Positions 14,348 through 62,313 of a stretch of 64,000 nucleotides of DNA are shown here, piece by piece. Below the pieces are notes generated by a model, which was not told where the DNA came from, searched no databases, and saw nothing but the letters and a program-made list of their open reading frames with translations. Numbering within the stretch: position 1 is the first letter of the stretch; every line of letters starts with the position of its first letter. Origin of the DNA: Eledone cirrhosa (taxonomy: Eukaryota); the NCBI GenBank assembly GCA_964016885.1, contig CAXHJY010000107.1:38208-102207 (forward strand). Direction: 5' to 3'. Both the position numbers and the translations under genes were made by a program.

Positions 14348-14355
14348 TAAAAAAA
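14348..14355 (+). other. Left A/B junction; TAAAAAAA, first copy of a possible target-site duplication or microhomology
   Basis: Reads CCCCCCA-TAAAAAAA-TTATCTCCCC. The A-run is shared by the end of an A Y-monomer and the start of a B monomer (AAATTATC). Confidence 0.7.
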
Positions 14356-17300
14356 TTATCTCCCCTTGGCTGGCTGGAAATTATCTCCCCTTGGACGGCT
14401 GGAAATTATCTCCCCTTGGACGGCTGGAAATTATCTCCCCTTGATTTTTTTACAAATTATCTCCCCCTGATTTTTTTTTTACAAATTATCTCCCCCTGAT
14501 TTTTTTTTACAAATTATCTACCCCTGATTTTTTTTTACAAATTATCTCCCCTTGATTTTTTTTACAAATTATCTCCCCCTGATTTTTTTTTACAAATTAT
14601 CTCCCCCTGATTTTTTTTTACAAATTATCTCCCCCTGATTTTTGTTTACAAATTATCTCCGCCTGATTTTTTTTAAAAAATTATCTCCCCTTGGACGGCT
14701 GGAAATTATCTCCCCTTGATTTTTTTACAAATTATCTCCCCCTGATTTTTTTTTACAAATTATCTCCCCCTGATTTTTTTACAAATTATCTCCCCCTGAT
14801 TTTTTTTACAAATTATCTCCGCCTGATTTTTTTAAATATTATCTCTCCTTGGCTGGCGGGAAATTATCTCCCCTTGGACGGCTGGAAATTATCTCCCCTT
14901 GAAAGGATGGAAATTATCTCCCCTTGGACGGCTGGAAATTATCTACCCCTGATTTTTTTTACAAATTATCTCCCCCTGATTTTTTTACAAATTATCTCCG
15001 CCTGATTTTTTTAAATGTTATCTCTCCTTGGCTGGCGGGAAATTATCTCCCCTTGGACGGCTGGAAATTATCTCCCCTTGGAAGGATGGAAATTATCTCC
15101 CCTTGGACGGCTGAAAATTATCTACCCCTGATTTTTTTTACAAATTATCTCCCCCTGATTTTTTTTACAAATTATCTCCCCCTGATTTTTTTTACAAATT
15201 ATCTACCCCTGATTTTTTTTACAAATTATCTCCCCCTGATTTTTTTTACAAATTATCTCCCCCTGATTTTTTTTACAAATTATCTCCCCCTGATTTTTTT
15301 TTACAAATTATCTCCCCCTGATTTTTTTACAAATTATCTCCCCCTGATTTTTTTTACAATCTCCGCCTGATTTTTTAAAAAATTATCTTCCCTTGGCTGG
15401 CGGGAAATTATCTCCCCTTGGACGGCTGGAAATTATCTCCCCTTGGAAGGATGGAAATTATCTCCCCTTGGACGGCTGGAAATTATCTCCCCTTGCACGG
15501 CTGGAAATTATAGCCCCTTGGAGGGCTGGAAATTATCTCCCCTTGATATTTTTTACAAATTATCTCCCCCTGATTTTTTTTTCAAATTATCTCCCCCTGA
15601 TTTTTTTTACAAATTATCTCCCCCCTGATTTTTTTACAAATTATCTCCCCTTGGCTGGCTGGAAATTATCTCCCCTTGGAGGCTGGAACTTATCTCCCCT
15701 TGGACGGCTAGAAATTACCTCTCCTTGGACGGCTGGAAAATATGTCTCCTTGGACGGCTGGATATTATCTCCCCTTGGACGGTTGGAAATTATCTCCCCT
15801 TGGACGGCTGGAAATTATCTCCCCTTGGATGGCTAGATATTACCTCCCCTTGGACGGCTGGAAATTATCTCCCCTTGATTTTTTTTACAAATTATCTCCC
15901 CCTGATTTTTTTTTACAAATTATCTCCCCCTGATTTTTTTTTAAAAATTATCTCCCCCTGATTTTTGTTTACAAATTATCTCCGCCTGATTTTTTTTTTT
16001 AAATTATCTCCCCTTGGACGGCTGGAAATTATCTCCCCTTGGACGGCTGGAAATTATATCTCCTTGGACGGCTAGAATTTACCTCTCCTTGGACGGCTGA
16101 AAATTATCTCCCCTTGGACGGCTGGAAATTATCTCCCCTTGATTTTTTTTACAAATTATCTCCCCCTGATTTTTTTTTTACAAATTATCTCCCCCTGATT
16201 TTTTTTACAAATTATCTCCCCCTAATTTTTTTTTTACAAATTATCTCCCCCTAATTTTTTTACAAATTATCTCCCCTTGGCTGGCTGGAAATTATCTCCC
16301 CTTGGAGGCTGGAACTTATCTCCCCTTGGACGGCTAGAAATTACGTCTCCTTGGACGGCTGGAAAATATGTCTCCTTGGACGGCTGGATATTATCTCCCC
16401 TTGGACGGCTGGAAATTATCTCCCCTTGGACGGCTGGAAATTATCTCCCCTTGGATGGCTAGATATTACCTCCCCTTGGACGGCTGGAAATTATCTCCCC
16501 TTGATTTTTTTTACAAATTATCTCCCCCTGATTTTTTCTTTACAAATTATCTCCCCCTGATTTTTTTTTACAAATTATCTCCCCCTGATTTTTTTTTACA
16601 AATTATCTCCCCCTGATTTTTGTTTACAAATTATCTCCGCCTGATTTTTTTTAAAAAAATTATCTCCCCTTGGACGGCTGGAAATTATCTCCCCTTGGAC
16701 GGCTAGAAATTACCTCTCCTTGGACGGCTGAAAATTATCTCCCCTTGGACGGCTGGAAATTATCTCCCCTTGATTTTTTTACAAATTATCTCCCCCTGAT
16801 TTTTTTTTTACAAATTATCTCCCCCTGATTTTTTTTTACAAATTATCTACCCCTGATTTTTTTTTACAAATTATCTCCCTCTGATTTTTTTTACAAATTA
16901 TCTCCCCCTGATTTTTTTTTTACAAATTATCTCCCCCTGATTTTTTTACAAATTATCTCCCCCTGATTTTTTTTTACAAATTATCTCCGCCTGATTTTTT
17001 TAAATATTATCTCTCCTTGGCTGGCGGGAAATTATCTCCCCTTGGACGGCTGGAAATTATCTCCCCTTGGAAGGATGGAAAATTATCTCCCCTTGGACGG
17101 CTGGAAATTATCTACCCCTGATTTTTTTTACAAATTATCTCCCCCTGATTTTTTTACAAATTATCTCCCCCTGATTTTTTTAAATGTTATCTCTCCTTGG
17201 CTGGCGGGAAATTATCTCCCCTTGGACGGCTGGAAATTATCTCCCCTTGGAAGGATGGAAATTATCTCCCCTTCGACGGCTGAAAAATTATCTACCCCTG

Positions 17301-17799
17301 ATTTTTTTTACAAATTATCTCCCCCTGATTTTTTTTACAAATTATCTCCCCCTGATTTTTTTTACAAATTATCTACCCCTGATTTTTTCTACAAATTATC
17401 TCCCCCTGATTTTTTTTACAAATTATCTCCCCCTGATTTTTTTTTTTACAAATTATCTCCCCCTGATTTTTTTACAAATTATCTCCCCCTGATTTTTTTT
17501 TTACAAATTATCTCCCCCTGATTTCTTTACAAATTATCTCCCCTTGGCTGGCTGGAAATTATCTCCCCTTGGAGGCTGGAACTTATCTCCCCTTGGACGG
17601 CTAGAAATTATCTCTCCTTGGACGGCTGGAAAATATGTCTCCTTGGACGGCTGGATATTATCTCCCCTTGGACGGCTGGAAATTATCTCCCCTTGGACGG
17701 CTGGAAATTATCTCCCCTTGGATGGCTAGATATTACCTCCCCTTGGACGGCTGGAAATTATCTCCCCTTGATTTTTTTTACAAATTATCTCCCCCTGAT

Positions 17800-20700
17800 T
17801 TTTTTTTACAAATTATCTCCCCCTGATTTTTTTTTACAAATTATCTCCCCCTGATTTTTGTTTACAAATTATCTCCGCCTGATTTTTTTAAAAAAATTAT
17901 CTCCCCTTGGACGGCTGGAAATTATCTCCCCTTGGACGGCTAGAAATTACCTCCTTGGACGGCTGAAAATTATCTCCCCTTGGACGGCTGGAAATTATCT
18001 CCCCTTGATTTTTTTACAAATTATCTCCCCCTGATTTTTTTTTTACAAATTATCTCCCCCAGATTTTTTTTTACAAATTATCTACCCCTGATTTTTTTTA
18101 CAAATTATCTCCCCCTGATTTTTTTTACAAATTATCTCCCCTGATTTTTTTTTACAAATTATCTCCCCCTGATTTTTTTACAAATTATCTCACCCTGATT
18201 TTTTTTACAAATTATCTCCGCCTGATTTTTTTAAATATTATCTCTCCTTGGCTGGCGGGAAATTATCTCCCCTTGGACGGCTGGAAATTATCTCCCCTTG
18301 GAAGGATGGAAATTATCTCCCCTTGGACGGCTGGAAATTATCTACCCCTGATTTTTTTTACAAATTATCTCCCCCTGATTTTTTTTACAAATTATCTCCC
18401 CCTGATTTTTTTTACAAATTATCTACCCCTGATTTTTTTTACAAATTATCTCGCCCTGATTTCTTTTACAAATTATCTCCCCCTGATTTTTTTTTTACAA
18501 ATTATCTCCCCCTGATTTTTTTACAAATTATCTCCCCCTGATTTTTTTTACAAATTATCTCCGCCTGATTTTTTTAAATGTTATCTCTCCTTGGCTGGCG
18601 GGAAATTATCTCCCCTTGGACGGCTGGAAATTATCTACCCTTGGAAGGATGGAAATTATCTCCCCTTGGACGGCTGGAAATTATCTACCCCTGATTTTTT
18701 TTACAAATTATCTCCCCCTGATTTTTTTTACAAATTATCTCCCCCTGATTTTTTTTTACAAATTATCTACCCCTGATTTTTTTACAAATTATCTCCCCTT
18801 GGCTGGCTGGAAATTATCTCCCCTTGGACGGCTAGAAATTACCTCTCCTTGGACGGCTGAAAATTATCTCCCCTTGGACGGCTGGAAATTATCTCCCCTT
18901 GATTTTTTTACAAATTATCACCCCCTGATTTTTTTTTTACAAATTATCTCCCCCTGATTTTTTTTTACAAATTATCTCCCCCTGATTTTTGTTTACAAAT
19001 TATCTCCGCCTGATTTTTTTAAAAAAATTATCTCCCCTTGGACGGCTGGAAATTATCTCCCCTTGGACGGCTAGAAATTACCTCTCCTTGGACGGCTGAA
19101 AATTATCTCCCCTTGGACGGCTGGAAATTATCTCCCCTTGATTTTTTTACAAATTATCTCCCCCTGATTTTTTTTTTACAAATTATCTCCCCCTGATTTT
19201 TTTTTACAAATTATCTACCCCTGATTTTTTTTTACAAATTATCTCCCCCTGATTTTTTTTACAAATTATCTCCCCCTGATTTTTTTTTACAAATTATCTC
19301 CCCCTGATTTTTTTACAAATTATCTCCCCCTGATTTTTTTTACAAATTATCTCCGCCTGATTTTTTTAAATATTATCTCTCCTTGGCTGGCGGGAAATTA
19401 TCTCCCCTTGGACGGCTGGAAATTATCTCCCCTTGGAAGGATGGAAATTATCTCCCCTTGGACGGCTGGAAATTATCTACCCCTGATTTTTTTTACAAAT
19501 TATCTCCCCCTGATTTTTTTACAAATTATCTCCCCCTGATTTTTTTTACAAATTATCTCCGCCTGATTTTTTTAAATGTTATCTCTCCTTGGCTGGCGGG
19601 AAATTATCTCCCCTTGGACGGCTGGAAATTATCTCCCCTTGGAAGGATGGAAATTATCTCCCCTTGGACGGCTGAAAATTATCTACCCCTGATTTTTTTT
19701 ACAAATTATCTCCCCCTGATTTTTTTTACAAATTATCTCCCCCTGATTTTTTTTACAAATTATCTACCCCTGATTTTTTCTACAGATTATCTCCCCCTGA
19801 TTTTTTTTTACAAATTATCTCCCCCTGATTTTTTTTTACAAATTATCTCCCCCTGATTTTTGTTTACAAATTATCTCCGCCTGATTTTTTTAAAAAAATT
19901 ATCTCCCCTTGGACGGCTGGAAATTATCTCCCCTTGGACGGCTAGAAATTACCTCCTTGGACGGCTGAAAATTATCTCCCCTTGGACGGCTGGAAATTAT
20001 CTCCCCTTGATTTTTTTACAAATTATCTCCCCCTGATTTTTTTTTTACAAATTATCTCCCCCTGATTTTTTTTTACAAATTATCTACCCCTGATTTTTTT
20101 TACAAATTATCTCCCCCTGATTTTTTTTACAAATTATCTCCCCTGATTTTTTTTTACAAATTATCTCCCCCTGATTTTTTTACAAATTATCTCCCCCTGA
20201 TTTTTTTTACAAATTATCTCCGCCTGATTTTTTTAAATATTATCTCTCCTTGGCTGGCGGGAAATTATCTCCCCTTGGACGGCTGGAAATTATCTCCCCT
20301 TGGAAGGATGGAAATTATCTCCCCTTGGACGGCTGGAAATTATCTACCCCTGATTTTTTTTACAAATTATCTCCCCCTGATTTTTTTTACAAATTATCTC
20401 CCCCTGATTTTTTTTACAAATTATCTACCCCTGATTTTTTTTACAAATTATCTCGCCCTGATTTCTTTTACAAATTATCTCCCCCTGATTTTTTTTTTAC
20501 AAATTATCTCCCCCTGATTTTTTTACAAATTATCTCCCCCTGATTTTTTTTACAAATTATCTCCGCCTGATTTTTTTAAATGTTATCTCTCCTTGGCTGG
20601 CGGGAAATTATCTCCCCTTGGACGGCTGGAAATTATCTACCCTTGGAAGGATGGAAATTATCTCCCCTTGGACGGCTGGAAATTATCTACCCCTGATTTT

Positions 20701-21790
20701 TTTTACAAATTATCTCCCCCTGATTTTTTTTACAAATTATCTCCCCCTGATTTTTTTTTACAAATTATCTACCCCTGATTTTTTTACAAATTATCTCCCC
20801 TTGGCTGGCTGGAAATTATCTCCCCTTGGACGGCTAGAAATTACCTCTCCTTGGACGGCTGAAAATTATCTCCCCTTGGACGGCTGGAAATTATCTCCCC
20901 TTGATTTTTTTACAAATTATCACCCCCTGATTTTTTTTTTACAAATTATCTCCCCCTGATTTTTTTTTACAAATTATCTCCCCCTGATTTTTGTTTACAA
21001 ATTATCTTTTTAAAAAAATTATCTCCCCTTGGACGGCTGGAAATTATCTCCCCTTGGACGGCTAGAAATTACCTCTCCTTGGACGGCTGAAAATTATCTC
21101 CCCTTGGACGGCTGGAAATTATCTCCCCTTGATTTTTTTACAAATTATCTCCCCCTGATTTTTTTTTTACAAATTATCTCCCCCTGATTTTTTTTTACAA
21201 ATTATCTACCCCTGATTTTTTTTTACAAATTATCTCCCCCTGATTTTTTTTACAAATTATCTCCCCCTGATTTTTTTTTACAAATTATCTCCCCCTGATT
21301 TTTTTACAAATTATCTCCCCCTGATTTTTTTTACAAATTATCTCCGCCTGATTTTTTTAAATATTATCTCTCCTTGGCTGGCGGGAAATTATCTCCCCTT
21401 GGACGGCTGGAAATTATCTCCCCTTGGAAGGATGGAAATTATCTCCCCTTGGACGGCTGGAAATTATCTACCCCTGATTTTTTTTACAAATTATCTCCCC
21501 CTGATTTTTTTACAAATTATCTCCCCCTGATTTTTTTTACAAATTATCTCCGCCTGATTTTTTTAAATGTTATCTCTCCTTGGCTGGCGGGAAATTATCT
21601 CCCCTTGGACGGCTGGAAATTATCTCCCCTTGGAAGGATGGAAATTATCTCCCCTTGGACGGCTGAAAATTATCTACCCCTGATTTTTTTTACAAATTAT
21701 CTCCCCCTGATTTTTTTTACAAATTATCTCCCCCTGATTTTTTTTACAAATTATCTACCCCTGATTTTTTCTACAGATTATCTCCCCCTG
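17800..21790. repeat. ~2.0 kb tandem duplication within satellite B (offset 2002/1991 bp; ends approximate)
   Basis: Identical pseudo-ORFs at 18248/20250 and 18591/20593. Rare variant CTACAGATT has its G at 19785 and 21776. The offset drops by 11 after the deletion at ~21007. Confidence 0.85.
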
Positions 21791-24700
21791 ATTTTTTTTA
21801 CAAATTATCTCCCCCTGATTTTTTTTTTACAAATTATCTCCCCCTGATTTTTTTACAAATTATCTCCACCTGATTTTTTTTTTACAAATTATCTCCCCCT
21901 GATTTTTTTACAAATTATCTCCCCTTGGCTGGCTGGAAATTATCTCCCCTTGGAGGCTGGAACTTATCTCCCCTTGGACGGCTAGAAATTACCTCTCCTT
22001 GGACGGCTGGAAAATATGTCTCCTTGGACGGCTGGATATTATCTCCCCTTGGACGGCTGGAAATTATCTCCCCTTGGACGGCTGGAAATTATCTCCCCTT
22101 GGATGGCTAGATATTACCTCCCCTTGGACGGCTGGAAATTATCTCCCCTTGATTTTTTTTACAAATTATCTCCCCCTGATTTTTTTTTACAAATTATCTC
22201 CCCCTGATTTTTTTACAAATTATCTCCCCCTGATTTTTTTTACAAATTATCTCCGCCTGATTTTTTTAAATATTATCTCTCCTTGGCTGGCGGGAAATTA
22301 TCTCCCCTTGGACGGCTGGAAATTATCTCCCCTTGGAAGGATGGAAATTATCTCCCCTTGGACGGCTGGAAATTATCTACCCCTGATTTTTTTTACAAAT
22401 TATCTCCCCCTGATTTTTTTACAAATTATCTCCCCCTGATTTTTTTTACAAATTATCTCCGCCTGATTTTTTTAAATGTTATCTCTCCTTGGCTGGCGGG
22501 AAATTATCTCCCCTTGGACGGCTGGAAATTATCTCCCCTTGGAAGGATGGAAATTATCTCCCCTTGGACGGCTGGAAATTATCTACCCCTGATTTTTTTT
22601 ACAAATTATCTCCCCCTGATTTTTTTTACAAATTATCTCCCCCTGATTTTTTTTTACAAATTATCTACCCCTGATTTTTTTACAAATTATCTCCCCTTGG
22701 CTGGCTGGAAATTATCTCCCCTTGGACGGCTAGAAATTACCTGTCCTTGGACGGCTGAAAATTATCTCCCCTTGGACGGCTGGAAATTATCTCCCCTTGA
22801 TTTTTTTACAAATTATCTCCCCCTGATTTTTTTTTTACAAATTATCTCCCCCTGATTTTTTTTTACAAATTATCTACCCCTGATTTTTTTTTACAAATTA
22901 TCTCCCCTTGATTTTTTTTACAAATTATCTCCCCCTGATTTTTTTTTACAAATTATCTCCCCCTGATTTTTTTTTACAAATTATCTCCCCCTGATTTTTT
23001 TTAAAAAATTATCTCCCCTTGGACGGCTGGAAATTATCTCCCCTTGGACGGCTAGAAATTACCTCTCCTTGGACGGCTGAAAATTATCTCCCCTTGGACG
23101 GCTGGAAATTATCTCCCCTTGATTTTTTTACAAATTATCTCCCCCTGATTTTTTTTTTACAAATTATCTCCCCCTGATTTTTTTTTACAAATTATCTACC
23201 CCTGATTTTTTTTACAAATTATCTCCCCCTGATTTTTTTTACAAATTATCTCCCCTGATTTTTTTTTACAAATTATCTCCCCCTGATTTTTTTACAAATT
23301 ATCTCCCCCTGATTTTTTTTACAAATTATCTCCGCCTGATTTTTTTAAATATTATCTCTCCTTGGCTGGCGGGAAATTATCTCCCCTTGGACGGCTGGAA
23401 ATTATCTCCCCTTGGAAGGATGGAAATTATCTCCCCTTGGACGGCTGGAAATTATCTACCCCTGATTTTTTTTACAAATTATCTCCCCCTGATTTTTTTT
23501 ACAAATTATCTCCCCCTGATTTTTTTTACAAATTATCTACCCCTGATTTTTTTTACAAATTATCTCGCCCTGATTTCTTTTACAAATTATCTCCCCCTGA
23601 TTTTTTTTTTACAAATTATCTCCCCCTGATTTTTTTACAAATTATCTCCCCCTGATTTTTTTTACAAATTATCTCCGCCTGATTTTTTTAAATGTTATCT
23701 CTCCTTGGCTGGCGGGAAATTATCTCCCCTTGGACGGCTGGAAATTATCTACCCTTGGAAGGATGGAAATTATCTCCCCTTGGACGGCTGGAAATTATCT
23801 ACCCCTGATTTTTTTTACAAATTATCTCCCCCTGATTTTTTTTACAAATTATCTCCCCCTGATTTTTTTTTACAAATTATCTACCCCTGATTTTTTTACA
23901 AATTATCTCCCCTTGGCTGGCTGGAAATTATCTCCCCTTGGACGGCTAGAAATTACCTCTCCTTGGACGGCTGAAAATTATCTCCCCTTGGACGGCTGGA
24001 AATTATCTCCCCTTGATTTTTTTACAAATTATCACCCCCTGATTTTTTTTTTACAAATTATCTCCCCCTGATTTTTTTTTACAAATTATCTCCCCCTGAT
24101 TTTTGTTTACAAATTATCTCCGCCTGATTTTTTTAAAAAAATTATCTCCCCTTGGACGGCTGGAAATTATCTCCCCTTGGACGGCTAGAAATTACCTCTC
24201 CTTGGACGGCTGAAAATTATCTCCCCTTGGACGGCTGGAAATTATCTCCCCTTGATTTTTTTACAAATTATCTCCCCCTGATTTTTTTTTTACAAATTAT
24301 CTCCCCCTGATTTTTTTTTACAAATTATCTACCCCTGATTTTTTTTTACAAATTATCTCCCCCTGATTTTTTTTACAAATTATCTCCCCCTGATTTTTTT
24401 TTACAAATTATCTCCCCCTGATTTTTTTACAAATTATCTCCCCCTGATTTTTTTTACAAATTATCTCCGCCTGATTTTTTTAAATATTATCTCTCCTTGG
24501 CTGGCGGGAAATTATCTCCCCTTGGACGGCTGGAAATTATCTCCCCTTGGAAGGATGGAAATTATCTCCCCTTGGACGGCTGGAAATTATCTACCCCTGA
24601 TTTTTTTTACAAATTATCTCCCCCTGATTTTTTTACAAATTATCTCCCCCTGATTTTTTTTACAAATTATCTCCGCCTGATTTTTTTAAATGTTATCTCT

Positions 24701-26330
24701 CCTTGGCTGGCGGGAAATTATCTCCCCTTGGACGGCTGGAAATTATCTCCCCTTGGAAGGATGGAAATTATCTCCCCTTGGACGGCTGAAAATTATCTAC
24801 CCCTGATTTTTTTTACAAATTATCTCCCCCTGATTTTTTTTACAAATTATCTCCCCCTGATTTTTTTTACAAATTATCTACCCCTGATTTTTTCTACAGA
24901 TTATCTCCCCCTGATTTTTTTTACAAATTATCTCCCCCTGATTTTTTTTTTACAAATTATCTCCCCCTGATTTTTTTACAAATTATCTCCACCTGATTTT
25001 TTTTTTACAAATTATCTCCCCCTGATTTTTTTACAAATTATCTCCCCTTGGCTGGCTGGAAATTATCTCCCCTTGGAGGCTGGAACTTATCTCCCCTTGG
25101 ACGGCTAGAAATTACCTCTCCTTGGACGGCTGGAAAATATGTCTCCTTGGACGGCTGGATATTATCTCCCCTTGGACGGCTGGAAATTATCTCCCCTTGG
25201 ACGGCTGGAAATTATCTCCCCTTGGATGGCTAGATATTACCTCCCCTTGGACGGCTGGAAATTATCTCCCCTTGATTTTTTTTACAAATTATCTCCCCCT
25301 GATTTTTTTTTACAAATTATCTCCCCCTGATTTTTTTACAAATTATCTCCCCCTGATTTTTTTTACAAATTATCTCCGCCTGATTTTTTTAAATATTATC
25401 TCTCCTTGGCTGGCGGGAAATTATCTCCCCTTGGACGGCTGGAAATTATCTCCCCTTGGAAGGATGGAAATTATCTCCCCTTGGACGGCTGGAAATTATC
25501 TACCCCTGATTTTTTTTACAAATTATCTCCCCCTGATTTTTTTACAAATTATCTCCCCCTGATTTTTTTTACAAATTATCTCCGCCTGATTTTTTTAAAT
25601 GTTATCTCTCCTTGGCTGGCGGGAAATTATCTCCCCTTGGACGGCTGGAAATTATCTCCCCTTGGAAGGATGGAAATTATCTCCCCTTGGACGGCTGGAA
25701 ATTATCTACCCCTGATTTTTTTTACAAATTATCTCCCCCTGATTTTTTTTACAAATTATCTCCCCCTGATTTTTTTTTACAAATTATCTACCCCTGATTT
25801 TTTTACAAATTATCTCCCCTTGGCTGGCTGGAAATTATCTCCCCTTGGACGGCTAGAAATTACCTGTCCTTGGACGGCTGAAAATTATCTCCCCTTGGAC
25901 GGCTGGAAATTATCTCCCCTTGATTTTTTTACAAATTATCTCCCCCTGATTTTTTTTTTACAAATTATCTCCCCCTGATTTTTTTTTACAAATTATCTAC
26001 CCCTGATTTTTTTTTACAAATTATCTCCCCTTGATTTTTTTTACAAATTATCTCCCCCTGATTTTTTTTTACAAATTATCTCCCCCTGATTTTTTTTTAC
26101 AAATTATCTCCCCCTGATTTTTTTTAAAAAATTATCTCCCCTTGGACGGCTGGAAATTATCTCCCCTTGGACGGCTAGAAATTACCTCTCCTTGGACGGC
26201 TGAAAATTATCTCCCCTTGGACGGCTGGAAATTATCTCCCCTTGATTTTTTTACAAATTATCTCCCCCTGATTTTTTTTTTACAAATTATCTCCCCCTGA
26301 TTTTTTTTTACAAATTATCTACCCCTGATT
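19960..26330. repeat. ~3.12 kb tandem duplication within satellite B (offset 3112/3123 bp; ends approximate)
   Basis: Identical pseudo-ORFs at 20250/23362, 21374/24497, 21925/25048 and 22283/25406; shared TTACCTGTCC variant near 22740 and 25863. Confidence 0.85.
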
Positions 26331-41300: not shown

Positions 41301-42380
41301 TACAAATTATCTCCCCCTGATTTTTTTTACAAATTATCTCCCCCTGATTTTTTTTTACAAATTATCTACCCCTGATTTTTTTACAAATTATCTCCCCTTG
41401 GCTGGCTGGAAATTATCTCCCCTTGGACGGCTAGAAATTACCTCTCCTTGGACGGCTGAAAATTATCTCCCCTTGGACGGCTGGAAATTATCTCCCCTTG
41501 ATTTTTTTACAAATTATCACCCCCTGATTTTTTTTTTACAAATTATCTCCCCCTGATTTTTTTTTACAAATTATCTCCCCCTGATTTTTGTTTACAAATT
41601 ATCTCCGCCTGATTTTTTTAAAAAAATTATCTCCCCTTGGACGGCTGGAAATTATCTCCCCTTGGACGGCTAGAAATTACCTCTCCTTGGACGGCTGAAA
41701 ATTATCTCCCCTTGGACGGCTGGAAATTATCTCCCCTTGATTTTTTTACAAATTATCTCCCCCTGATTTTTTTTTTACAAATTATCTCCCCCTGATTTTT
41801 TTTTACAAATTATCTACCCCTGATTTTTTTTTACAAATTATCTCCCCCTGATTTTTTTTACAAATTATCTCCCCCTGATTTTTTTTTACAAATTATCTCC
41901 CCCTGATTTTTTTACAAATTATCTCCCCCTGATTTTTTTTACAAATTATCTCCGCCTGATTTTTTTAAATATTATCTCTCCTTGGCTGGCGGGAAATTAT
42001 CTCCCCTTGGACGGCTGGAAATTATCTCCCCTTGGAAGGATGGAAATTATCTCCCCTTGGACGGCTGGAAATTATCTACCCCTGATTTTTTTTACAAATT
42101 ATCTCCCCCTGATTTTTTTACAAATTATCTCCCCCTGATTTTTTTTACAAATTATCTCCGCCTGATTTTTTTAAATGTTATCTCTCCTTGGCTGGCGGGA
42201 AATTATCTCCCCTTGGACGGCTGGAAATTATCTCCCCTTGGAAGGATGGAAATTATCTCCCCTTGGACGGCTGAAAATTATCTACCCCTGATTTTTTTTA
42301 CAAATTATCTCCCCCTGATTTTTTTTACAAATTATCTCCCCCTGATTTTTTTTACAAATTATCTACCCCTGATTTTTTCT
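24340..42380. repeat. ~8.5 kb near-identical block repeated at 9478 bp offset within satellite B (ends approximate)
   Basis: Rare variants recur at exactly +9478: 27577/37055, 28153/37631, 28303/37781, 31684/41162. Pseudo-ORFs 24497/33975 through 32504/41982 keep the same offset. Confidence 0.9.
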
Positions 42381-51100: not shown

Positions 51101-54100
51101 TGATTTTTTTTACAAATTATCTCCCCCTGATTTTTTTTACAAATTATCTCCCCCTGATTTTTTTTTACAAATTATCTACCCCTGATTTTTTTACAAATTA
51201 TCTCCCCTTGGCTGGCTGGAAATTATCTCCCCTTGGACGGCTAGAAATTACCTGTCCTTGGACGGCTGAAAATTATCTCCCCTTGGACGGCTGGAAATTA
51301 TCTCCCCTTGATTTTTTTACAAATTATCTACCCCTGATTTTTTTTTACAAATTATCTCCCCTTGATTTTTTTTACAAATTATCTCCCCCTGATTTTTTTT
51401 TACAAATTATCTCCCCCTGATTTTTTTTTACAAATTATCTCCCCCTGATTTTTGTTTACAAATTATCTCCGCCTGTTTTTTTTTAAAAAATTATCTCCCC
51501 TTGGACGGCTGGAAATTATCTCCCCTTGGACGGCTAGAAATTACCTCTCCTTGGAAGGATGGAAATTATCTCCCCTTGGACGGCTGGAAATTATCTACCC
51601 CTGATTTTTTTTACAAATTATCTCCCCCTGATTTTTTTACAAATTATCTCCCCCTGATTTTTTTTACAAATTATCTCCGCCTGATTTTTTTAAATGTTAT
51701 CTCTCCTTGGCTGGCGGGAAATTATCTCCCCTTGGACGGCTGGAAATTATCTCCCCTTGGAAGGATGGAAATTATCTCCCCTTCGACGGCTGAAAATTAT
51801 CTACCCCTGATTTTTTTTACAAATTATCTCCCCCTGATTTTTTTTACAAATTATCTCCCCCTGATTTTTTTTACAAATTATCTACCCCTGATTTTTTCTA
51901 CAAATTATCTCCCCCTGATTTTTTTTACAAATTATCTCCCCCTGATTTTTTTTTTACAAATTATCTCCCCCTGATTTTTTTACAAATTATCTCCCCCTGA
52001 TTTTTTTTTTACAAATTATCTCCCCCTGATTTCTTTACAAATTATCTCCCCTTGGCTGGCTGGAAATTATCTCCCCTTGGAGGCTGGAACTTATCTCCCC
52101 TTGGACGGCTAGAAATTATCTCTCCTTGGACGGCTGGAAAATATGTCTCCTTGGACGGCTGGATATTATCTCCCCTTGGACGGCTGGAAATTATCTCCCC
52201 TTGGACGGCTGGAAATTATCTCCCCTTGGATGGCTAGATATTACCTCCCCTTGGACGGCTGGAAATTATCTCCCCTTGATTTTTTTTACAAATTATCTCC
52301 CCCTGATTTTTTTTTACAAATTATCTCCCCCTGATTTTTTTTTACAAATTATCTCCCCCTGATTTTTGTTTACAAATTATCTCCGCCTGATTTTTTTAAA
52401 AAAATTATCTCCCCTTGGACGGCTGGAAATTATCTCCCCTTGGACGGCTAGAAATTACCTCCTTGGACGGCTGAAAATTATCTCCCCTTGGACGGCTGGA
52501 AATTATCTCCCCTTGATTTTTTTACAAATTATCTCCCCCTGATTTTTTTTTTACAAATTATCTCCCCCTGATTTTTTTTTACAAATTATCTACCCCTGAT
52601 TTTTTTTACAAATTATCTCCCCCTGATTTTTTTTACAAATTATCTCCCCTGATTTTTTTTTACAAATTATCTCCCCCTGATTTTTTTACAAATTATCTCC
52701 CCCTGATTTTTTTTACAAATTATCTCCGCCTGATTTTTTTAAATATTATCTCTCCTTGGCTGGCGGGAAATTATCTCCCCTTGGACGGCTGGAAATTATC
52801 TCCCCTTGGAAGGATGGAAATTATCTCCCCTTGGACGGCTGGAAATTATCTACCCCTGATTTTTTTTACAAATTATCTCCCCCTGATTTTTTTTACAAAT
52901 TATCTCCCCCTGATTTTTTTTACAAATTATCTACCCCTGATTTTTTTTACAAATTATCTCGCCCTGATTTCTTTTACAAATTATCTCCCCCTGATTTTTT
53001 TTTTACAAATTATCTCCCCCTGATTTTTTTACAAATTATCTCCCCCTGATTTTTTTTACAAATTATCTCCGCCTGATTTTTTTAAATGTTATCTCTCCTT
53101 GGCTGGCGGGAAATTATCTCCCCTTGGACGGCTGGAAATTATCTACCCTTGGAAGGATGGAAATTATCTCCCCTTGGACGGCTGGAAATTATCTACCCCT
53201 GATTTTTTTTACAAATTATCTCCCCCTGATTTTTTTTACAAATTATCTCCCCCTGATTTTTTTTTACAAATTATCTACCCCTGATTTTTTTACAAATTAT
53301 CTCCCCTTGGCTGGCTGGAAATTATCTCCCCTTGGACGGCTAGAAATTACCTCTCCTTGGACGGCTGAAAATTATCTCCCCTTGGACGGCTGGAAATTAT
53401 CTCCCCTTGATTTTTTTACAAATTATCACCCCCTGATTTTTTTTTTACAAATTATCTCCCCCTGATTTTTTTTTACAAATTATCTCCCCCTGATTTTTGT
53501 TTACAAATTATCTCCGCCTGATTTTTTTAAAAAAATTATCTCCCCTTGGACGGCTGGAAATTATCTCCCCTTGGACGGCTAGAAATTACCTCTCCTTGGA
53601 CGGCTGAAAATTATCTCCCCTTGGACGGCTGGAAATTATCTCCCCTTGATTTTTTTACAAATTATCTCCCCCTGATTTTTTTTTTACAAATTATCTCCCC
53701 CTGATTTTTTTTTACAAATTATCTACCCCTGATTTTTTTTTACAAATTATCTCCCCCTGATTTTTTTTACAAATTATCTCCCCCTGATTTTTTTTTACAA
53801 ATTATCTCCCCCTGATTTTTTTACAAATTATCTCCCCCTGATTTTTTTTACAAATTATCTCCGCCTGATTTTTTTAAATATTATCTCTCCTTGGCTGGCG
53901 GGAAATTATCTCCCCTTGGACGGCTGGAAATTATCTCCCCTTGGAAGGATGGAAATTATCTCCCCTTGGACGGCTGGAAATTATCTACCCCTGATTTTTT
54001 TTACAAATTATCTCCCCCTGATTTTTTTACAAATTATCTCCCCCTGATTTTTTTTACAAATTATCTCCGCCTGATTTTTTTAAATGTTATCTCTCCTTGG

Positions 54101-57100
54101 CTGGCGGGAAATTATCTCCCCTTGGACGGCTGGAAATTATCTCCCCTTGGAAGGATGGAAATTATCTCCCCTTGGACGGCTGAAAATTATCTACCCCTGA
54201 TTTTTTTTACAAATTATCTCCCCCTGATTTTTTTTACAAATTATCTCCCCCTGATTTTTTTTACAAATTATCTACCCCTGATTTTTTCTACAAATTATCT
54301 CCCCCTGATTTTTTTTACAAATTATCTCCCCCTGATTTTTTTTTTACAAATTATCTCCCCCTGATTTTTTTACAAATTATCTCCCCCTGATTTTTTTTTT
54401 ACAAATTATCTCCCCCTGATTTCTTTACAAATTATCTCCCCTTGGCTGGCTGGAAATTATCTCCCCTTGGAGGCTGGAACTTATCTCCCCTTGGACGGCT
54501 AGAAATTATCTCTCCTTGGACGGCTGGAAAATATGTCTCCTTGGACGGCTGGATATTATCTCCCCTTGGACGGCTGGAAATTATCTCCCCTTGGACGGCT
54601 GGAAATTATCTCCCCTTGGATGGCTAGATATTACCTCCCCTTGGACGGCTGGAAATTATCTCCCCTTGATTTTTTTTACAAATTATCTCCCCCTGATTTT
54701 TTTTTACAAATTATCTCCCCCTGATTTTTTTTTACAAATTATCTCCCCCTGATTTTTGTTTACAAATTATCTCCGCCTGATTTTTTTAAAAAAATTATCT
54801 CCCCTTGGACGGCTGGAAATTATCTCCCCTTGGACGGCTAGAAATTACCTCCTTGGACGGCTGAAAATTATCTCCCCTTGGACGGCTGGAAATTATCTCC
54901 CCTTGATTTTTTTACAAATTATCTCCCCCTGATTTTTTTTTTACAAATTATCTCCCCCTGATTTTTTTTTACAAATTATCTACCCCTGATTTTTTTTACA
55001 AATTATCTCCCCCTGATTTTTTTTACAAATTATCTCCCCTGATTTTTTTTTACAAATTATCTCCCCCTGATTTTTTTACAAATTATCTCCCCCTGATTTT
55101 TTTTACAAATTATCTCCGCCTGATTTTTTTAAATATTATCTCTCCTTGGCTGGCGGGAAATTATCTCCCCTTGGACGGCTGGAAATTATCTCCCCTTGGA
55201 AGGATGGAAATTATCTCCCCTTGGACGGCTGGAAATTATCTACCCCTGATTTCTTTTACAAATTATCTCCCCCTGATTTTTTTACAAATTATCTCCCCCT
55301 GATTTTTTTTACAAATTATCTCCGCCTGATTTTTTTAAATGTTATCTCTCCTTGGCTGGCGGGAAATTATCTCCCCTTGGACGGCTGGAAATTATCTCCC
55401 CTTGGAAGGATGGAAATTATCTCCCCTTGGACGGCTGGAAATTATCTACCCCTGATTTTTTTTACAAATTATCTCCCCCTGATTTTTTTTACAAATTATC
55501 TCCCCCTGATTTTTTTTACAAATTATCTACCCCTGATTTTTTTTACAAATTATCTCGCCCTGATTTCTTTTACAAATTATCTCCCCCTGATTTTTTTTTA
55601 CAAATTATCTCCCCCTGATTTTTTTACAAATTATCTCCCCCTGATTTTTTTTACAAATTATCTCCGCCTGATTTTTTTAAATGTTATCTCTCCTTGGCTG
55701 GCGGGAAATTATCTCCCCTTGGACGGCTGGAAATTATCTACCCTTGGAAGGATGGAAATTATCTCCCCTTGGACGGCTGGAAATTATCTACCCCTGATTT
55801 TTTTTACAAATTATCTCCCCCTGATTTTTTTTACAAATTATCTCCCCCTGATTTTTTTTTACAAATTATCTACCCCTGATTTTTTTACAAATTATCTCCC
55901 CTTGGCTGGCTGGAAATTATCTCCCCTTGGACGGCTAGAAATTACCTCTCCTTGGACGGCTGAAAATTATCTCCCCTTGGACGGCTGGAAATTATCTCCC
56001 CTTGATTTTTTTACAAATTATCACCCCCTGATTTTTTTTTTACAAATTATCTCCCCCTGATTTTTTTTTACAAATTATCTCCCCCTGATTTTTGTTTACA
56101 AATTATCTCCGCCTGATTTTTTTAAAAAAATTATCTCCCCTTGGACGGCTGGAAATTATCTCCCCTTGGACGGCTAGAAATTACCTCTCCTTGGACGGCT
56201 GAAAATTATCTCCCCTTGGACGGCTGGAAATTATCTCCCCTTGATTTTTTTACAAATTATCTCCCCCTGATTTTTTTTTTACAAATTATCTCCCCCTGAT
56301 TTTTTTTTACAAATTATCTACCCCTGATTTTTTTTTACAAATTATCTCCCCCTGATTTTTTTTACAAATTATCTCCCCCTGATTTTTTTTTACAAATTAT
56401 CTCCCCCTGATTTTTTTACAAATTATCTCCCCCTGATTTTTTTTACAAATTATCTCCGCCTGATTTTTTTAAATATTATCTCTCCTTGGCTGGCGGGAAA
56501 TTATCTCCCCTTGGACGGCTGGAAATTATCTCCCCTTGGAAGGATGGAAATTATCTCCCCTTGGACGGCTGGAAATTATCTACCCCTGATTTTTTTTACA
56601 AATTATCTCCCCCTGATTTTTTTACAAATTATCTCCCCCTGATTTTTTTTACAAATTATCTCCGCCTGATTTTTTTAAATGTTATCTCTCCTTGGCTGGC
56701 GGGAAATTATCTCCCCTTGGACGGCTGGAAATTATCTCCCCTTGGAAGGATGGAAATTATCTCCCCTTGGACGGCTGAAAATTATCTACCCCTGATTTTT
56801 TTTACAAATTATCTCCCCCTGATTTTTTTTACAAATTATCTCCCCCTGATTTTTTTTACAAATTATCTACCCCTGATTTTTTCTACAAATTATCTCCCCC
56901 TGATTTTTTTTACAAATTATCTCCCCCTGATTTTTTTTTTACAAATTATCTCCCCCTGATTTTTTTACAAATTATCTCCACCTGATTTTTTTTTTACAAA
57001 TTATCTCCCCCTGATTTTTTTACAAATTATCTCCCCTTGGCTGGCTGGAAATTATCTCCCCTTGGAGGCTGGAACTTATCTCCCCTTGGACGGCTAGAAA

Positions 57101-57996
57101 TTACCTCTCCTTGGACGGCTGGAAAATATGTCTCCTTGGACGGCTGGATATTATCTCCCCTTGGACGGCTGGAAATTATCTCCCCTTGGACGGCTGGAAA
57201 TTATCTCCCCTTGGATGGCTAGATATTACCTCCCCTTGGACGGCTGGAAATTATCTCCCCTTGATTTTTTTTACAAATTATCTCCCCCTGATTTTTTTTT
57301 ACAAATTATCTCCCCCTGATTTTTTTACAAATTATCTCCCCCTGATTTTTTTTACAAATTATCTCCCCCTGATTTTTTTACAAATTATCTCCCCCTGATT
57401 TTTTTTACAAATTATCTCCGCCTGATTTTTTTAAATGTTATCTCTCCTTGGCTGGCGGGAAATTATCTCCCCTTGGACGGCTGGAAATTATCTCCCCTTG
57501 GAAGGATGGAAATTATCTCCCCTTGGACGGCTGGAAATTATCTACCCCTGATTTTTTTTACAAATTATCTCCCCCTGATTTTTTTTACAAATTATCTCCC
57601 CCTGATTTTTTTTTACAAATTATCTACCCCTGATTTTTTTACAAATTATCTCCCCTTGGCTGGCTGGAAATTATCTCCCCTTGGACGGCTAGAAATTACC
57701 TGTCCTTGGACGGCTGAAAATTATCTCCCCTTGGACGGCTGGAAATTATCTCCCCTTGATTTTTTTACAAATTATCTACCCCTGATTTTTTTTTACAAAT
57801 TATCTCCCCTTGATTTTTTTTACAAATTATCTCCCCCTGATTTTTTTTTACAAATTATCTCCCCCTGATTTTTTTTTACAAATTATCTCCCCCTGATTTT
57901 TGTTTACAAATTATCTCCGCCTGTTTTTTTTTAAAAAATTATCTCCCCTTGGACGGCTGGAAATTATCTCCCCTTGGACGGCTAGAAATTACCTCT
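45101..57996. repeat. 6448 bp head-to-tail tandem duplication within satellite B (45101-51548 and 51549-57996)
   Basis: Rare variants at exactly +6448 (CTTCGACG 45336/51784; GCCTGTTTT 51475/57923), matching pseudo-ORF offsets, and a chimeric monomer at the junction. Confidence 0.9.
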
Positions 57997-60900
57997 CCTT
58001 GGACGGCTGAAAATTATCTCCCCTTGGACGGCTGGAAATTATCTCCCCTTGATTTTTTTACAAATTATCTCCCCCTGATTTTTTTTTTACAAATTATCTC
58101 CCCCTGATTTTTTTTTACAAATTATCTACCCCTGATTTTTTTTTACAAATTATCTCCCCCTGATTTTTTTTACGAATTATCTCCCCCTGATTTTTTTTTA
58201 CAAATTATCTCCCCCTGATTTTTTTAAATGTTATCTCTCCTTGGCTGGCGGGAAATTATCTCCCCTTGGACGGCTGGAAATTATCTCCCCTTGGAAGGAT
58301 GGAAATTATCTCCCCTTGGACGGCTGAAAATTATCTACCCCTGATTTTTTTTACAAATTATCTCCCCCTGATTTTTTTACAAATTATCTCCGCCTGATTT
58401 TTTTAAATGTTATCTCTCCTTGGCTGGCGGGAAATTATCTCCCCTTGGACGGCTGGAAATTATCTCCCCTTGGAAGGATGGAAATTATCTCCCCTTGGAC
58501 GGCTGAAAATTATCTACCCCTGATTTTTTTTACAAATTATCTCCCCCTGATTTTTTTTACAAATTATCTACCCCTGATTTTTTTTACAAATTATCTCCCC
58601 CTGATTTTTTTTACAAATTATCTCCCCCTGATTTTTTTTTACAAATTATCTCCCCCTGATTTTTTTTTTACAAATTATCTCCCCCTGATTTTTTTACAAA
58701 TTATCTCCCCCTGATTTTTTTTACAATCTCCGCCTGATTTTTTAAAAAATTATCTTCCCTTGGCTGACGGGAAATTATCTCCCCTTGGACGGCTGGAAAT
58801 TATCTCCCCTTGGAAGGATGGAAATTATCTCCACTTGGACGGCTGGAAATTATCTCCCCTTGCACGGCTGGAAATTATAGCCCCTTGGAGGGCTGGAAAT
58901 TATCTCCCCTTGATATTTTTTACAAATTATCTCCCCCTGATGTTTTTTTCAAATTATCTCCCCCTGATTTTTTTACAAATTATCTCCCCCCTGATTTTTT
59001 TACAAATTATCTCCCCTTGGCTGGCTGGAAATTATCTCCCCTTGGAGGCTGGAACTTATCTCCCCTTGGACGGCTAGAAATTACCTCTCCTTGGACGGCT
59101 GGAAAATATGTCTCCTTGGACGGCTGGATATTATCTCCCCTTGGACGGCTGGAAATTATCTCCCCTTGGACGGCTGGAAATTATCTCCCCTTGGATGGCT
59201 AGATATTACCTCCCCTTGGACGGCTGGAAATTATCTCCCCTTGATTTTTTTTACAAATTATCTCCCCCTGATTTTTTTTTACAAATTATCTCCCCCTGAT
59301 TTTTTTTTAAAAATTATCTCCCCCTGATTTTTGTTTACAAATTATCTCCGCCTGATTTTTTTTAAAAAATTATCTCCCCTTGGACGGCTGGAAATTATCT
59401 CCCCTTGGACGGCTAGAATTTACCTCTCCTTGGACGGCTGAAAATTATCTCCCCTTGGACGGCTGGAAATTATCTCCCCTTGATTTTTTTTACAAATTAT
59501 CTCCCCCTGATTTTTTTTTACAAATTATCTCCCCCTGATTTTTTTTTACAAATTATCTCCCCCTGATTTTTTTTTACAAATTATCTCCCCCTGATTTTTT
59601 TACAAATTATCTCCCCCTGATTTTTTTTACAAATTATCTCCGCCTGATTTTTTTAAATATTATCTCTCCTTGGCTGGCGGGAAATTATCTCCCCTTGGAC
59701 GGCTGGAAATTATCTCCCCTTGGAAGGATGGAAATTATCTCCCCTTGGACGGCTGGAAATTATCTACCCCTGATTTTTTTTACAAATTATCTTCCCCTGA
59801 TTTTTTTTTACAAATTATCTCCCCCTGATTTTTTTTTACAAATTATCTCCCCCTGATTTTTGTTTACAAATTATCTCCGCCTGATTTTTTTAAAAAAATT
59901 ATCTCCCCTTGGACGGCTGGAAATTATCTCCCCTTGGACGGCTAGAAATTACCTCCTTGGACGGCTGAAAATTATCTCCCCTTGGACGGCTGGAAATTAT
60001 CTCCTCTTGATTTTTTTACAAATTATCTCCCCCTGATTTTTTTTTTACAAATTATCTCCCCCTGATTTTTTTTTACAAATTATCTACCCCTGATTTTTTT
60101 TACAAATTATCTCCCCCTGATTTTTTTTACAAATTATCTCCCCCTGATTTTTTTTTTACAAATTATCTCCCCCTGATTTTTTTGCAAATTATCTCCCCCT
60201 GATTTTTTTTACAAATTATCTCCGCCTGATTTTTTTAAATGTTATCTCTCCTTGGCTGGCGGGAAATTATCTCCCCTTGGACGGCTGGAAATTATCTCCC
60301 CTTGGAAGGATGGAAATTATCTCCCCTTGGACGGCTGGAAATTATCTACCCCTGATTTTTTTTACAAATTATCTCCCCCTGATTTTTTTTACAAATTATC
60401 TCCCCCTGATTTTTTTTTACAAATTATCTACCCCTGATTTTTTTACAAATTATCTCCCCTTGGCTGGCTGGAAATTATCTCCCCTTGGACGGCTAGAAAT
60501 TACCTCTCCTTGGACGGCTGAAAATTATCTCCCCTTGGACGGCTGGAAATTATCTCCCCTTGATTTTTTTACAAATTATCACCCCCTGATTTTTTTTTTA
60601 CAAATTATCTCCCCCTGATTTTTTTTTACAAATTATCTCCCCCTGATTTTTGTTTACAAATTATCTCCGCCTGATTTTTTAAAAAAAATTATCTCCCCTT
60701 GGACGGCTGGAAATTATCTCCCCTTGGACGGCTAGAAATTACCTCTCCTTGGACGGCTGAAAATTATCTCCCCTTGGACGGCTGGAAATTATCTCCCCTT
60801 GATTTTTTTACAAATTATCTCCCCCTGATTTTTTTTTTACAAATTATCTCCCCCTGATTTTTTTTTACAAATTATCTACCCCTGATTTTTTTTTACAAAT

Positions 60901-62297
60901 TATCTCCCCCTGATTTTTTTTACAAATTATCTCCCCCTGATTTTTTTTTACAAATTATCTCCCCCTGATTTTTTTACAAATTATCTCCCCCTGATTTTTT
61001 TTACAAATTATCTCCGCCTGATTTTTTTAAATGTTATCTCTCCTTGGCTGGCGGGAAATTATCTCCCCTTGGACGGCTGGAAATTATCTCCCCTTGGAAG
61101 GATGGAAATTATCTCCCCTTGGACGGCTGAAAATTATCTACCCCTGATTTTTTTTACAAATTATCTCCCCCTGATTTTTTTTACAAATTATCTCCCCCTG
61201 ATTTTTTTTACAAATTATCTACCCCTGATTTTTTCTACAAATTATCTCCCCCTGATTTTTTTTACAAATTATCTCCCCCTGATTTTTTTTTTACAAATTA
61301 TCTCCCCCTGATTTTTTTACAAATTATCTCCCCCTGATTTTTTTTTTACAAATTATCTCCCCCTGATTTTTTTACAAATTATCTCCCCTTGGCTGGCTGG
61401 AAATTATCTCCCCTTGGAGGCTGGAACTTATCTCCCCTTGGACGGCTAGAAATTACCTCTCCTTGGACGGCTGGAAAATATGTCTCCTTGGACGGCTGGA
61501 TATTATCTCCCCTTGGACGGCTGGAAATTATCTCCCCTTGGACGGCTGGAAATTATCTCCCTTTGGATGGCTAGATATTACCTCCCCTTGGACGGCTGGA
61601 AATTATCTCCCCTTGATTTTTTTTACAAATTATCTCCCCCTGATTTTTTTTTACAAATTATCTCCCCCTGATTTTTTTTTACAAATTATCTCCCCCTGAT
61701 TTTTGTTTACAAATTATCTCCGCCTGATTTTTTTTTAAAAATTATCTCCCCTTGGACGGCTGGAAATTATCTCCCCTTGGACGGCTAGAAATTACCTCCT
61801 TGGACGGCTGAAAATTATCTCCCCTTGGACGGCTGGAAATTATCTCCCCTTGATTTTTTTACAAATTATCTCCCCCTGATTTTTTTTTTACAAATTATCT
61901 CCCCCTGATTTTTTTTTACAAATTATCTACCCCTGATTTTTTTTTACAAATCATCTCCCCCTGATTTTTTTTACAAATTATCTCCCCTGATTTTTTTTTA
62001 CAAATTATCTCCCCCTGATTTTTTTACAAATTATCTCCCCCTGATTTTTTTTACAAATTATCTCCGCCTGATTTTTTTAAATATTATCTCTCCTTGGCTG
62101 GCGGGAAATTATCTCCCCTTGGACGGCTGGAAATTATCTCCCCTTGGAAGGATGGAAATTATCTCCCCTTGGACGGCTGGAAATTATCTACCCCTGATTT
62201 TTTTTACAAATTATCTCCCACTGATTTTTTTACAAATTATCTCCCCCTGATTTTTTTTACAAATTATCTCCGCCTGATTTTTTTAAATGTTATCTCA

Positions 62298-62313
62298 ATA
62301 ATTTGTAAAAAAA
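62298..62313 (-). repeat. 16 bp inverted fragment of a satellite B T-type monomer at the right junction
   Basis: ATAATTTGTAAAAAAA is the exact reverse complement of TTTTTTTACAAATTAT (nearest copy 62252-62267). Its last 8 bases double as the satellite A TAAAAAAA preceding CGGGGCACCC. Confidence 0.85.

What the first reader, a model, noticed from the sequence alone, without database searches (positions are those of the whole stretch)
14348..62313. A 48 kb satellite nested inside another satellite, with a TSD-like 8 bp repeat and a perfectly restorable empty site
Seen: the left flank ends GGACCCCCCCCA-TAAAAAAA and the right flank starts TAAAAAAA-CGGGGCACCCAAAT. Deleting 14356-62313 gives GGACCCCCCCCATAAAAAAACGGGGCACCC, a canonical in-register Y-then-X step of satellite A. 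Both A arms share orientation and variants, and both junctions are base-sharp with no intermixing. Inference: a seed or block of B inserted into an A-tract of a pre-existing A array and then expanded in place. Possible routes are reintegration of circular satellite DNA or microhomology-mediated break repair. No transposase, LTR or long TIR is present. Caveat: TAAAAAAA occurs in nearly every Y monomer, so two independent microhomology joins would look the same as a TSD.
Basis: partly seen in the sequence, partly recalled or inferred. Interest (0 to 1): 0.75.

Follow-up and report, generated by a model that had tools for sequence, protein, structure and literature searches.

The report
Alternating two-satellite array from one founder
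The 48 kb block of one satellite inside another is real but not unique: the same two junctions recur nine and ten times in an alternating array, most likely copies of one old break-repair event multiplied by unequal exchange, a layout already known from beetles.

Summary
The coordinates, the sharp junctions and the two TAAAAAAA words are as described, but the reading as a single insertion with a target-site duplication fails. Both junctions recur exactly in this genome: A-to-B 9 times, B-to-A 10 times, alternating in a 343 kb A-[B-A]x8 contig on C7 and in C134. B blocks span 0.9-52 kb. All copies share both flanks, mostly within 1%, so they descend from one founder. The restored 'empty site' occurs at 0 of 20 intact copies of the right flank, whereas about 83% of comparable true steps recur. 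Inner A spacers are chimeras of the downstream and upstream arms, as unequal exchange predicts. Public reads neither confirmed nor excluded the junctions. Closest known: Tribolium minor-in-major satellite cassettes. The scan reported a founder-junction array elsewhere in this genome (e1-9589259). New member of a known kind.

The parts
1..14355 (+). Satellite A, left arm: the last 14.4 kb of a 35 kb A spacer that begins at another B-to-A junction 20.6 kb upstream of the window (C134:17560)
14348..14355 (+). A-tract tail of the last A monomer (the left 'TSD'); its last three A are also B's usual AAA before this monomer, a 3 bp microhomology
   Evidence: the B start word is preceded by an AAA-ending word in 202 of 202 internal occurrences at this locus
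14356..62296 (+). Satellite B block, 47.9 kb, two main monomer types with higher-order repeats; starts and ends at the same positions as the other B blocks of the locus
62252..62267 (+). Nearest forward copy that could have templated the inverted piece (45 bp from the join); one of 822 identical words in the block
62297..62297 (+). One A that neither forward B, inverted canonical B nor A explains (likely untemplated)
62298..62313 (-). 16 bp inverted piece of the B monomer; its last 8 bp (62306-62313, the right 'TSD') are shared with the A-tract of satellite A
   Evidence: chance of the 8 extra bases about 6e-5; present once in each of 10 B-to-A junctions
62306..64000 (+). Satellite A, right arm, starting with a rare variant pair (X then a Y with a C-to-T change); runs to the contig end

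Best explanation
This is one unit of an alternating A/B satellite array whose two junctions recur identically 9 and 10 times, likely because one founding piece of B was joined into an A array by microhomology-based, templated break repair and the A-B-A unit was then likely multiplied by unequal exchange between its A arms. Shown: junction counts, alternation, shared flanks, the inverted 16 bp piece, chimeric spacers, B lengths from 0.9 to 52 kb between fixed ends. Inferred: step 1, a piece of B (closest sampled relative: the array at C2 246.7 Mb) was captured at a break in A; the left end joined through 3 bp of AAA, the right end through short synthesis of an inverted B word that created an 8 bp match to an A-tract (polymerase-theta / SD-MMEJ style), with loss or rearrangement of A between the two arms, so no target-site duplication. 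Step 2, misaligned exchange between upstream and downstream A arms copied B with both junctions and left chimeric spacers. Step 3, exchange inside B changed each block's length. No function is implied.
For: Exact junction patterns: 9 A-to-B and 10 B-to-A, all on C7 29.53-29.78 Mb or C134 (relaxed pattern one search found no other place). Strict alternation in a gapless 343 kb contig. Flank identity among the 8 C7 copies: B start 0-2 substitutions in 800 for 7 of 8, B end 0-2 in 800 for 8 of 8, left A flank 0-4 in 1000 for 6 of 8; the larger counts coincide with monomer deletions. Window copy differs from C7 copies by about 0.5-1.5%. Spacers begin like the downstream arm and end like the upstream arm in the 9.3 and 11.1 kb spacers; the 2.8 kb spacer is the first two monomers of the downstream arm plus upstream arm. 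The right arm's best non-junction match is the next repeat of the downstream block, 96.7% against 92.5% identity in the upstream block's top hit. The 877 bp B block is B's start fused to B's end. Inverted word. B donor candidates: 77% of compressed 24-mers shared with C2 246.7 Mb against 27-59% for seven other sampled B loci.
Against: No read or contig was seen to span either junction: depth 0 at 62298-62301 in the contigs of X6 and X7 and in raw reads of X13, depth of one read in X12; no listed piece bridges the left junction. The nearest perfect template lies 45 bp from the join, outside the 30 bp criterion for SD-MMEJ (PMC5728401), and one base is unexplained. The C7 contig is bounded by gaps, so the true ends of the array and the place of C134 are unknown. 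Some C7 copies are identical over 2.5-3.6 kb, so part of the copy number could come from the assembler. Unequal exchange cannot be told from rolling-circle copying by sequence alone. Only 8 other B loci were sampled, so the donor is not settled.
Confidence: 0.74

Rival explanations
1. An A array once bordered a B array (A-to-B join first); the B-to-A join is a later duplication or rearrangement breakpoint that brought A back behind B, so there never was an insertion with two ends made at once.
For: The two joins look different (3 bp microhomology against a templated inverted piece); the arms were not adjacent; a relative of the right-flank string lies about 6 kb upstream of the first A-to-B join; an independent B-to-A join exists at C3 179.43 Mb, so the families meet more than once.
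Against: The C7 contig ends in 12.6 kb of A with its own higher-order repeat, to which the right arm belongs better than to the upstream block; no long terminal B array is seen, though gaps may hide one.
Confidence: 0.12
2. One reading: one insertion of B into an A-tract with a staggered cut (8 bp target-site duplication), then expansion in place.
For: Both 8-mers exist, in register; B is enclosed by A.
Against: Right 8-mer is part of a 16 bp inverted B word; empty step seen at 0 of 20 intact right-flank copies against 139 of 160 to 334 of 401 for true steps with rare right context; junctions are reiterated.
Confidence: 0.06
3. The alternation or the junctions are assembly errors.
For: No spanning reads seen; gaps on both sides of the C7 contig; some copies identical over kilobases.
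Against: The same non-satellite base string appears in two separate contigs and in 10 copies that carry private substitutions and at least five spacer lengths (2.6, 2.8, 9.3, 11.1, 35 kb); an assembler does not invent an inverted 16-mer.
Confidence: 0.05
4. B with fixed ends is a mobile cassette that inserted repeatedly and specifically into A-tracts of satellite A.
For: Fixed ends, variable inner length, ten copies.
Against: All copies sit in the same A context on both sides and at one locus plus one unplaced contig, although A arrays lie on at least six other scaffolds; no transposase, TIR or LTR.
Confidence: 0.03

Closest known systems
Tribolium madens TmSat2-in-TmSat1 'cassettes' (PMC13081366; abstract and passages read) and T. 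freemani TfSat03-in-TfSat01 cassettes (PMC12581902; passages read)
   Same: One satellite embedded repeatedly in another, bounded by two different conserved transitions, with a variable number of inner repeats; eccDNA and exchange proposed as spreading routes.
   Different: Those number in thousands (3,385 of 5,764 TmSat2 arrays complete), lie on many chromosomes and have macro-dyad symmetry. Here there are about ten, at one locus, in one orientation, under about 1.5% apart, with a base-sharp junction whose only inversion is 16 bp.
Interspersed non-homologous satellites in cactophilic Drosophila: pBuM with CDSTR130 or DBC-150 (PMC5555486; passages read; Kuhn et al. 2009 seen only as cited there)
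   Same: Arrays of two satellites alternate in one region.
   Different: I did not see junction sequences of those arrays; here all junctions trace to one founder pair.
SD-MMEJ / polymerase-theta snap-back junctions (PMC5728401; passages read)
   Same: A short insertion that is an inverted copy of nearby sequence and ends in a microhomology with the other side.
   Different: Nearest perfect template is 45 bp away (their criterion: 30 bp), one base is unexplained, and enzyme dependence cannot be tested on an old germline junction.
Meloidogyne composite higher-order repeats of different satellites (PMC3694981; abstract only)
   Same: Short shared motifs at joins between different satellites; illegitimate recombination proposed.
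   Different: Monomer-scale composites there; kilobase-scale blocks here.

Membership tests
Transposon-type insertion with target-site duplication | Flanking direct repeat that is target-derived and restores a pre-existing site | tested here: not met
   Right copy is part of an inverted B word; restored step at 0 of 20 intact copies
Transposon-type insertion with target-site duplication | Terminal inverted repeats, LTRs or a transposase | tested here: not met
   Window is satellite throughout; the only run of unique 11-mers is the right junction; long open frames are a stop-poor strand of A. The 7 bp AAATTAT/ATAATTT pair at the ends is the B core, present 1,566 times, and is out of register with the 8-mers
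Transposon-type insertion with target-site duplication | Copies at unrelated target sites | tested here: not met
   All 9 and 10 junction copies share their A flanks
SD-MMEJ-consistent junction (PMC5728401 criteria) | Repeat motif of at least 4 bp that includes a microhomology of at least 1 bp | tested here: met
   16 bp inverted motif, 8 bp microhomology with A
SD-MMEJ-consistent junction (PMC5728401 criteria) | Break-distal end of the motif within 30 bp of the join | tested here: not met
   Nearest perfect template starts at 62252, 45 bp away; a template in trans is not excluded
SD-MMEJ-consistent junction (PMC5728401 criteria) | Primer repeat of at least 1 bp | tested here: inconclusive
   Needs the extra A at 62297 and one further A to be added without template
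SD-MMEJ-consistent junction (PMC5728401 criteria) | Dependence on polymerase theta | not testable with these tools
   Historical germline event
Tribolium-type satellite cassette | One satellite repeatedly embedded in another with two conserved transitions and variable inner copy number | tested here: met
Tribolium-type satellite cassette | Macro-dyad symmetry inside the cassette | tested here: not met
   All blocks in one orientation; one inverted word per cassette, 8 on C7 and 2 on C134
Tribolium-type satellite cassette | Spread over many chromosomes in (peri)centromeric regions | tested here: not met
   Only C7 29.5-29.8 Mb and unplaced C134; centromere position not testable

The most novel reading that the evidence does not exclude
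A young and possibly still polymorphic two-satellite macro-array whose whole history can be read at base level: a polymerase-theta-type templated scar at the founding junction, then eight or more rounds of unequal exchange. It would show how conserved 'cassette' borders like those of Tribolium arise by descent alone, without selection for structure. The two satellites may in addition be re-united offspring of one older composite repeat found elsewhere in this genome.
Probability: 0.35. Interest if true: 0.5.

Novelty: new member of a known kind. Interest (0 to 1): 0.28.

Why it matters
It corrects a tempting reading: A-tract 'duplications' in satellites are not evidence of transposon-like insertion. 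It also gives a small, datable example that conserved satellite-satellite borders can simply be copies of one founder, a neutral alternative to the structural role proposed for Tribolium cassettes. It does not reveal a new mobile element or a new mechanism.

Tried and rejected
Read support: one run search (11 holders, 4 with half of the words or more, all one coded organism not shown to be the window's species) and two layings (4 runs each, 6 different runs of 14 listed). No listed piece bridged a junction. By hand: the junction is 10 of 1,771 copies of B's end word (0.56%), and 381 and 525 reads carry that variant in X12 and X13, so about 2 and 3 junction reads would be expected against 0-1 seen; size selection of restriction fragments, mates counted twice and species doubt make this inconclusive. 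Contig holes prove nothing. Closed-circle test (B end joined to B start): 1 of 263 end-words at the locus, in another context; 0 in eight other B loci; no support. An 8 bp microhomology at the left junction through B's own A7 variant (132 copies) was considered and dropped, because that variant continues differently from the junction. Local fold-back on the last monomer as the template was rejected: it would differ at four of the 16 positions (read). Hidden coding: 2,605-codon frame on the minus strand of A is compositional, A has 14 stop triplets on that strand against 720 on the plus strand. A genome-wide pattern for the empty step could not be run; the question was answered by inspecting all 30 genome-wide copies of the right-flank word. 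The human precedent of HSat1A inside alpha-satellite arrays is recalled only: the paper was not held and two searches plus one preprint's passages did not show it. Literature searches with no direct hit: 0 papers; 1; 9 listed, none on this satellite pair. Sequence look-up in earlier findings returned two unrelated microbial notes. No supplements were read.

Full report
Observation. The window holds satellite A (20 bp monomers; types X, Y, Z and rarer variants) at 1-14355 and 62306-64000 and satellite B (25 bp; 1,827 copies by TRF) between them. Neither satellite's words occur inside the other. The 8-mer is common (250 times in the left arm, 32 in the right, 26 in B) and 1,855 of 2,250 Y-type monomers are followed by X, so neither the repeat nor the register is beyond chance once both breaks fall in A-tracts.

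What was missed at the right junction. Forward B ends at 62296 in mid-monomer. One extra A follows, then 62298-62313, the exact reverse complement of a word found 822 times forward in this B block; it is the only inverted B word in the window. Its last 8 bp are the right 'TSD' and also fit the A-tract of satellite A. The 8 bases not explained by A would match inverted B by chance at about 6e-5. The nearest perfect template is at 62252-62267. At the left junction the B start word is preceded inside B by an AAA-ending word in 202 of 202 internal occurrences, a 3 bp microhomology. The two ends are thus two different microhomology joins, one with a templated inverted insert.

The junctions are not unique. 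The window is the last 64 kb of contig C134 (102 kb) of a 3.0 Gb genome. Exact patterns find the A-to-B junction 9 times and the B-to-A junction 10 times, only on C7 29.53-29.78 Mb and C134 (a relaxed pattern found 8 of the 9 and no other place). Painting 400 kb of C7 shows a gap-bounded 343 kb contig A-[B-A]x8: A 79 kb, then B blocks of 26.4, 26.2, 8.8, 30.3, 0.9, 52.1, 29.3 and 43.5 kb separated by A spacers of 9.3, 11.1, 2.8, 2.8, 2.8, 2.6 and 2.6 kb, then A 12.6 kb; C134 is B 17.6, A 35, B 48, A 1.7 kb. A third satellite lies beyond both gaps.

One founder. All copies share both flanks at both junctions. Among C7 copies the B ends differ by 0-2 substitutions in 800 bases, the B starts by 0-2 (7 of 8; the eighth is the 877 bp block, start fused to end), the left A flanks by 0-4 in 1000 (6 of 8; two carry a monomer-block deletion). 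The window's copy is about 0.5-1.5% from the C7 copies, so C134 is another haplotype or another part of the array; this is unresolved. Independent insertions would land in different A contexts; they do not.

The empty site. Coding A monomers as letters shows that the right arm starts with a rare variant pair. Genome-wide the word has 30 copies: 10 at junctions and 20 intact. None of the 20 is preceded by the left arm's last two monomers; the 15 at C7, C134 and C272 all follow a different monomer type. As a control, true Y-X steps with a rare right context recur elsewhere in 139 of 160 (3 monomers a side) to 334 of 401 (6 a side) cases, computed on five long A blocks and leaving out steps with unclassified monomers. 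The left arm's one intact relative continues differently. So the arms were probably not neighbours; turnover since the event could also have erased the site, so this is likely, not proven.

How it was multiplied. The 9.3 and 11.1 kb spacers begin like the terminal downstream A block and end like the upstream block; the short spacers are two monomers of the downstream arm plus upstream arm (three of seven C7 spacers and the C134 spacer were painted, the last with scattered matches only). The first 1.5 kb of the right arm matches best the next repeat inside the downstream block (96.7%). This is what unequal exchange between A arms flanking a B block gives; rolling-circle copying followed by exchange is not excluded. 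B lengths then varied 60-fold between fixed ends.

Where B came from. B has large arrays on C3 162.7-169.1 Mb, C2 and C4. Of eight sampled loci, C2 246.7 Mb shares most with the window (77% of compressed 24-mers; others 27-59%) and is the only one with the end-word variant; that word has 1,771 copies genome-wide. An older composite unit (AT-rich spacer, two A-like motifs, older B monomers) forms arrays on C1 and C3, and at C3 179.43 Mb older B joins an A array independently. A and B may share an ancestral repeat; I did not test this beyond motif likeness. The window's junctions use modern higher-order variants of both, so they are not inherited from that unit.

Against my reading. No public read or contig was seen to span a junction; raw restriction-fragment reads of other samples gave 0-1 where about 5 were expected, which is inconclusive and could mean absence in those individuals. 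The SD-MMEJ distance criterion is not met. Gaps hide the array's ends.

Comparison. Tribolium madens and T. freemani have minor satellites embedded in major ones as cassettes with conserved borders and variable inner copy number (PMC13081366; PMC12581902); cactophilic Drosophila have interspersed non-homologous satellites (PMC5555486); inverted templated inserts ending in microhomology define snap-back SD-MMEJ (PMC5728401). The present array works like a small, young cassette array but lacks dyad symmetry and spread, so it is not filed as a member of the Tribolium type in the strict sense. That the animal is an octopod comes from those notes and was not tested; a search for this satellite pair in print listed nothing relevant.

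Verdict. Real feature, wrong headline: not a TSD-bearing nested insertion but one unit of an alternating array copied from a single founder with a templated end-joining scar. New member of a known kind; interest 0.28.

Noticed in passing
G000 C1 251.77-252.21 Mb, C3 165.86-165.87 Mb, C21 17.716 Mb, C3 179.428 Mb (L061, L065-L069, L087): Older composite tandem unit: roughly 250 bp AT-rich spacer, two motifs resembling satellite A's core plus A-tract, then a run of an older B variant. Satellites A and B may both have grown out of it (350 candidates, 40 scored).
   Followed up: partly
G000 C3 179,429,169 (L088): Independent B-to-A join: older B runs directly into at least 39 kb of diverged A through a few shared G/C bases; single copy for that pattern.
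   Followed up: partly
G000 C21 17.715-17.717 Mb (L068): A B array that begins in unique-looking DNA and grades from the older B variant into the modern two-monomer B within 1.5 kb, a possible record of how modern B arose.
   Followed up: no
G000 C10 26.415-26.420 Mb (L082): Short A array that switches orientation 9 times in 4.5 kb. Similar flips suggested at C5 64.41-64.43 Mb by k-mer painting were not confirmed (183 forward, 0 reverse words).
   Followed up: partly
G000 C7 29.50-29.519 Mb and 29.863-29.90 Mb (L001, L002, L037-L040): A third, AT-rich satellite lies on both sides of the A/B contig across 200-base gaps, so the A/B array itself may be nested in a third satellite or only scaffolded there.
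   Followed up: no
window 6534-14348, minus strand: Open frame of 2,605 codons in satellite A; other frames are open for 800-2,000 codons too, because that strand has almost no stop triplets. Compositional.
   Followed up: yes
window 14356-62296: Higher-order periodicity inside B at 52, 107, 264 and 390 coded units.
   Followed up: no
G000 C3 169.1047 Mb (L057): A large B array ends abruptly in an AT dinucleotide microsatellite.
   Followed up: no
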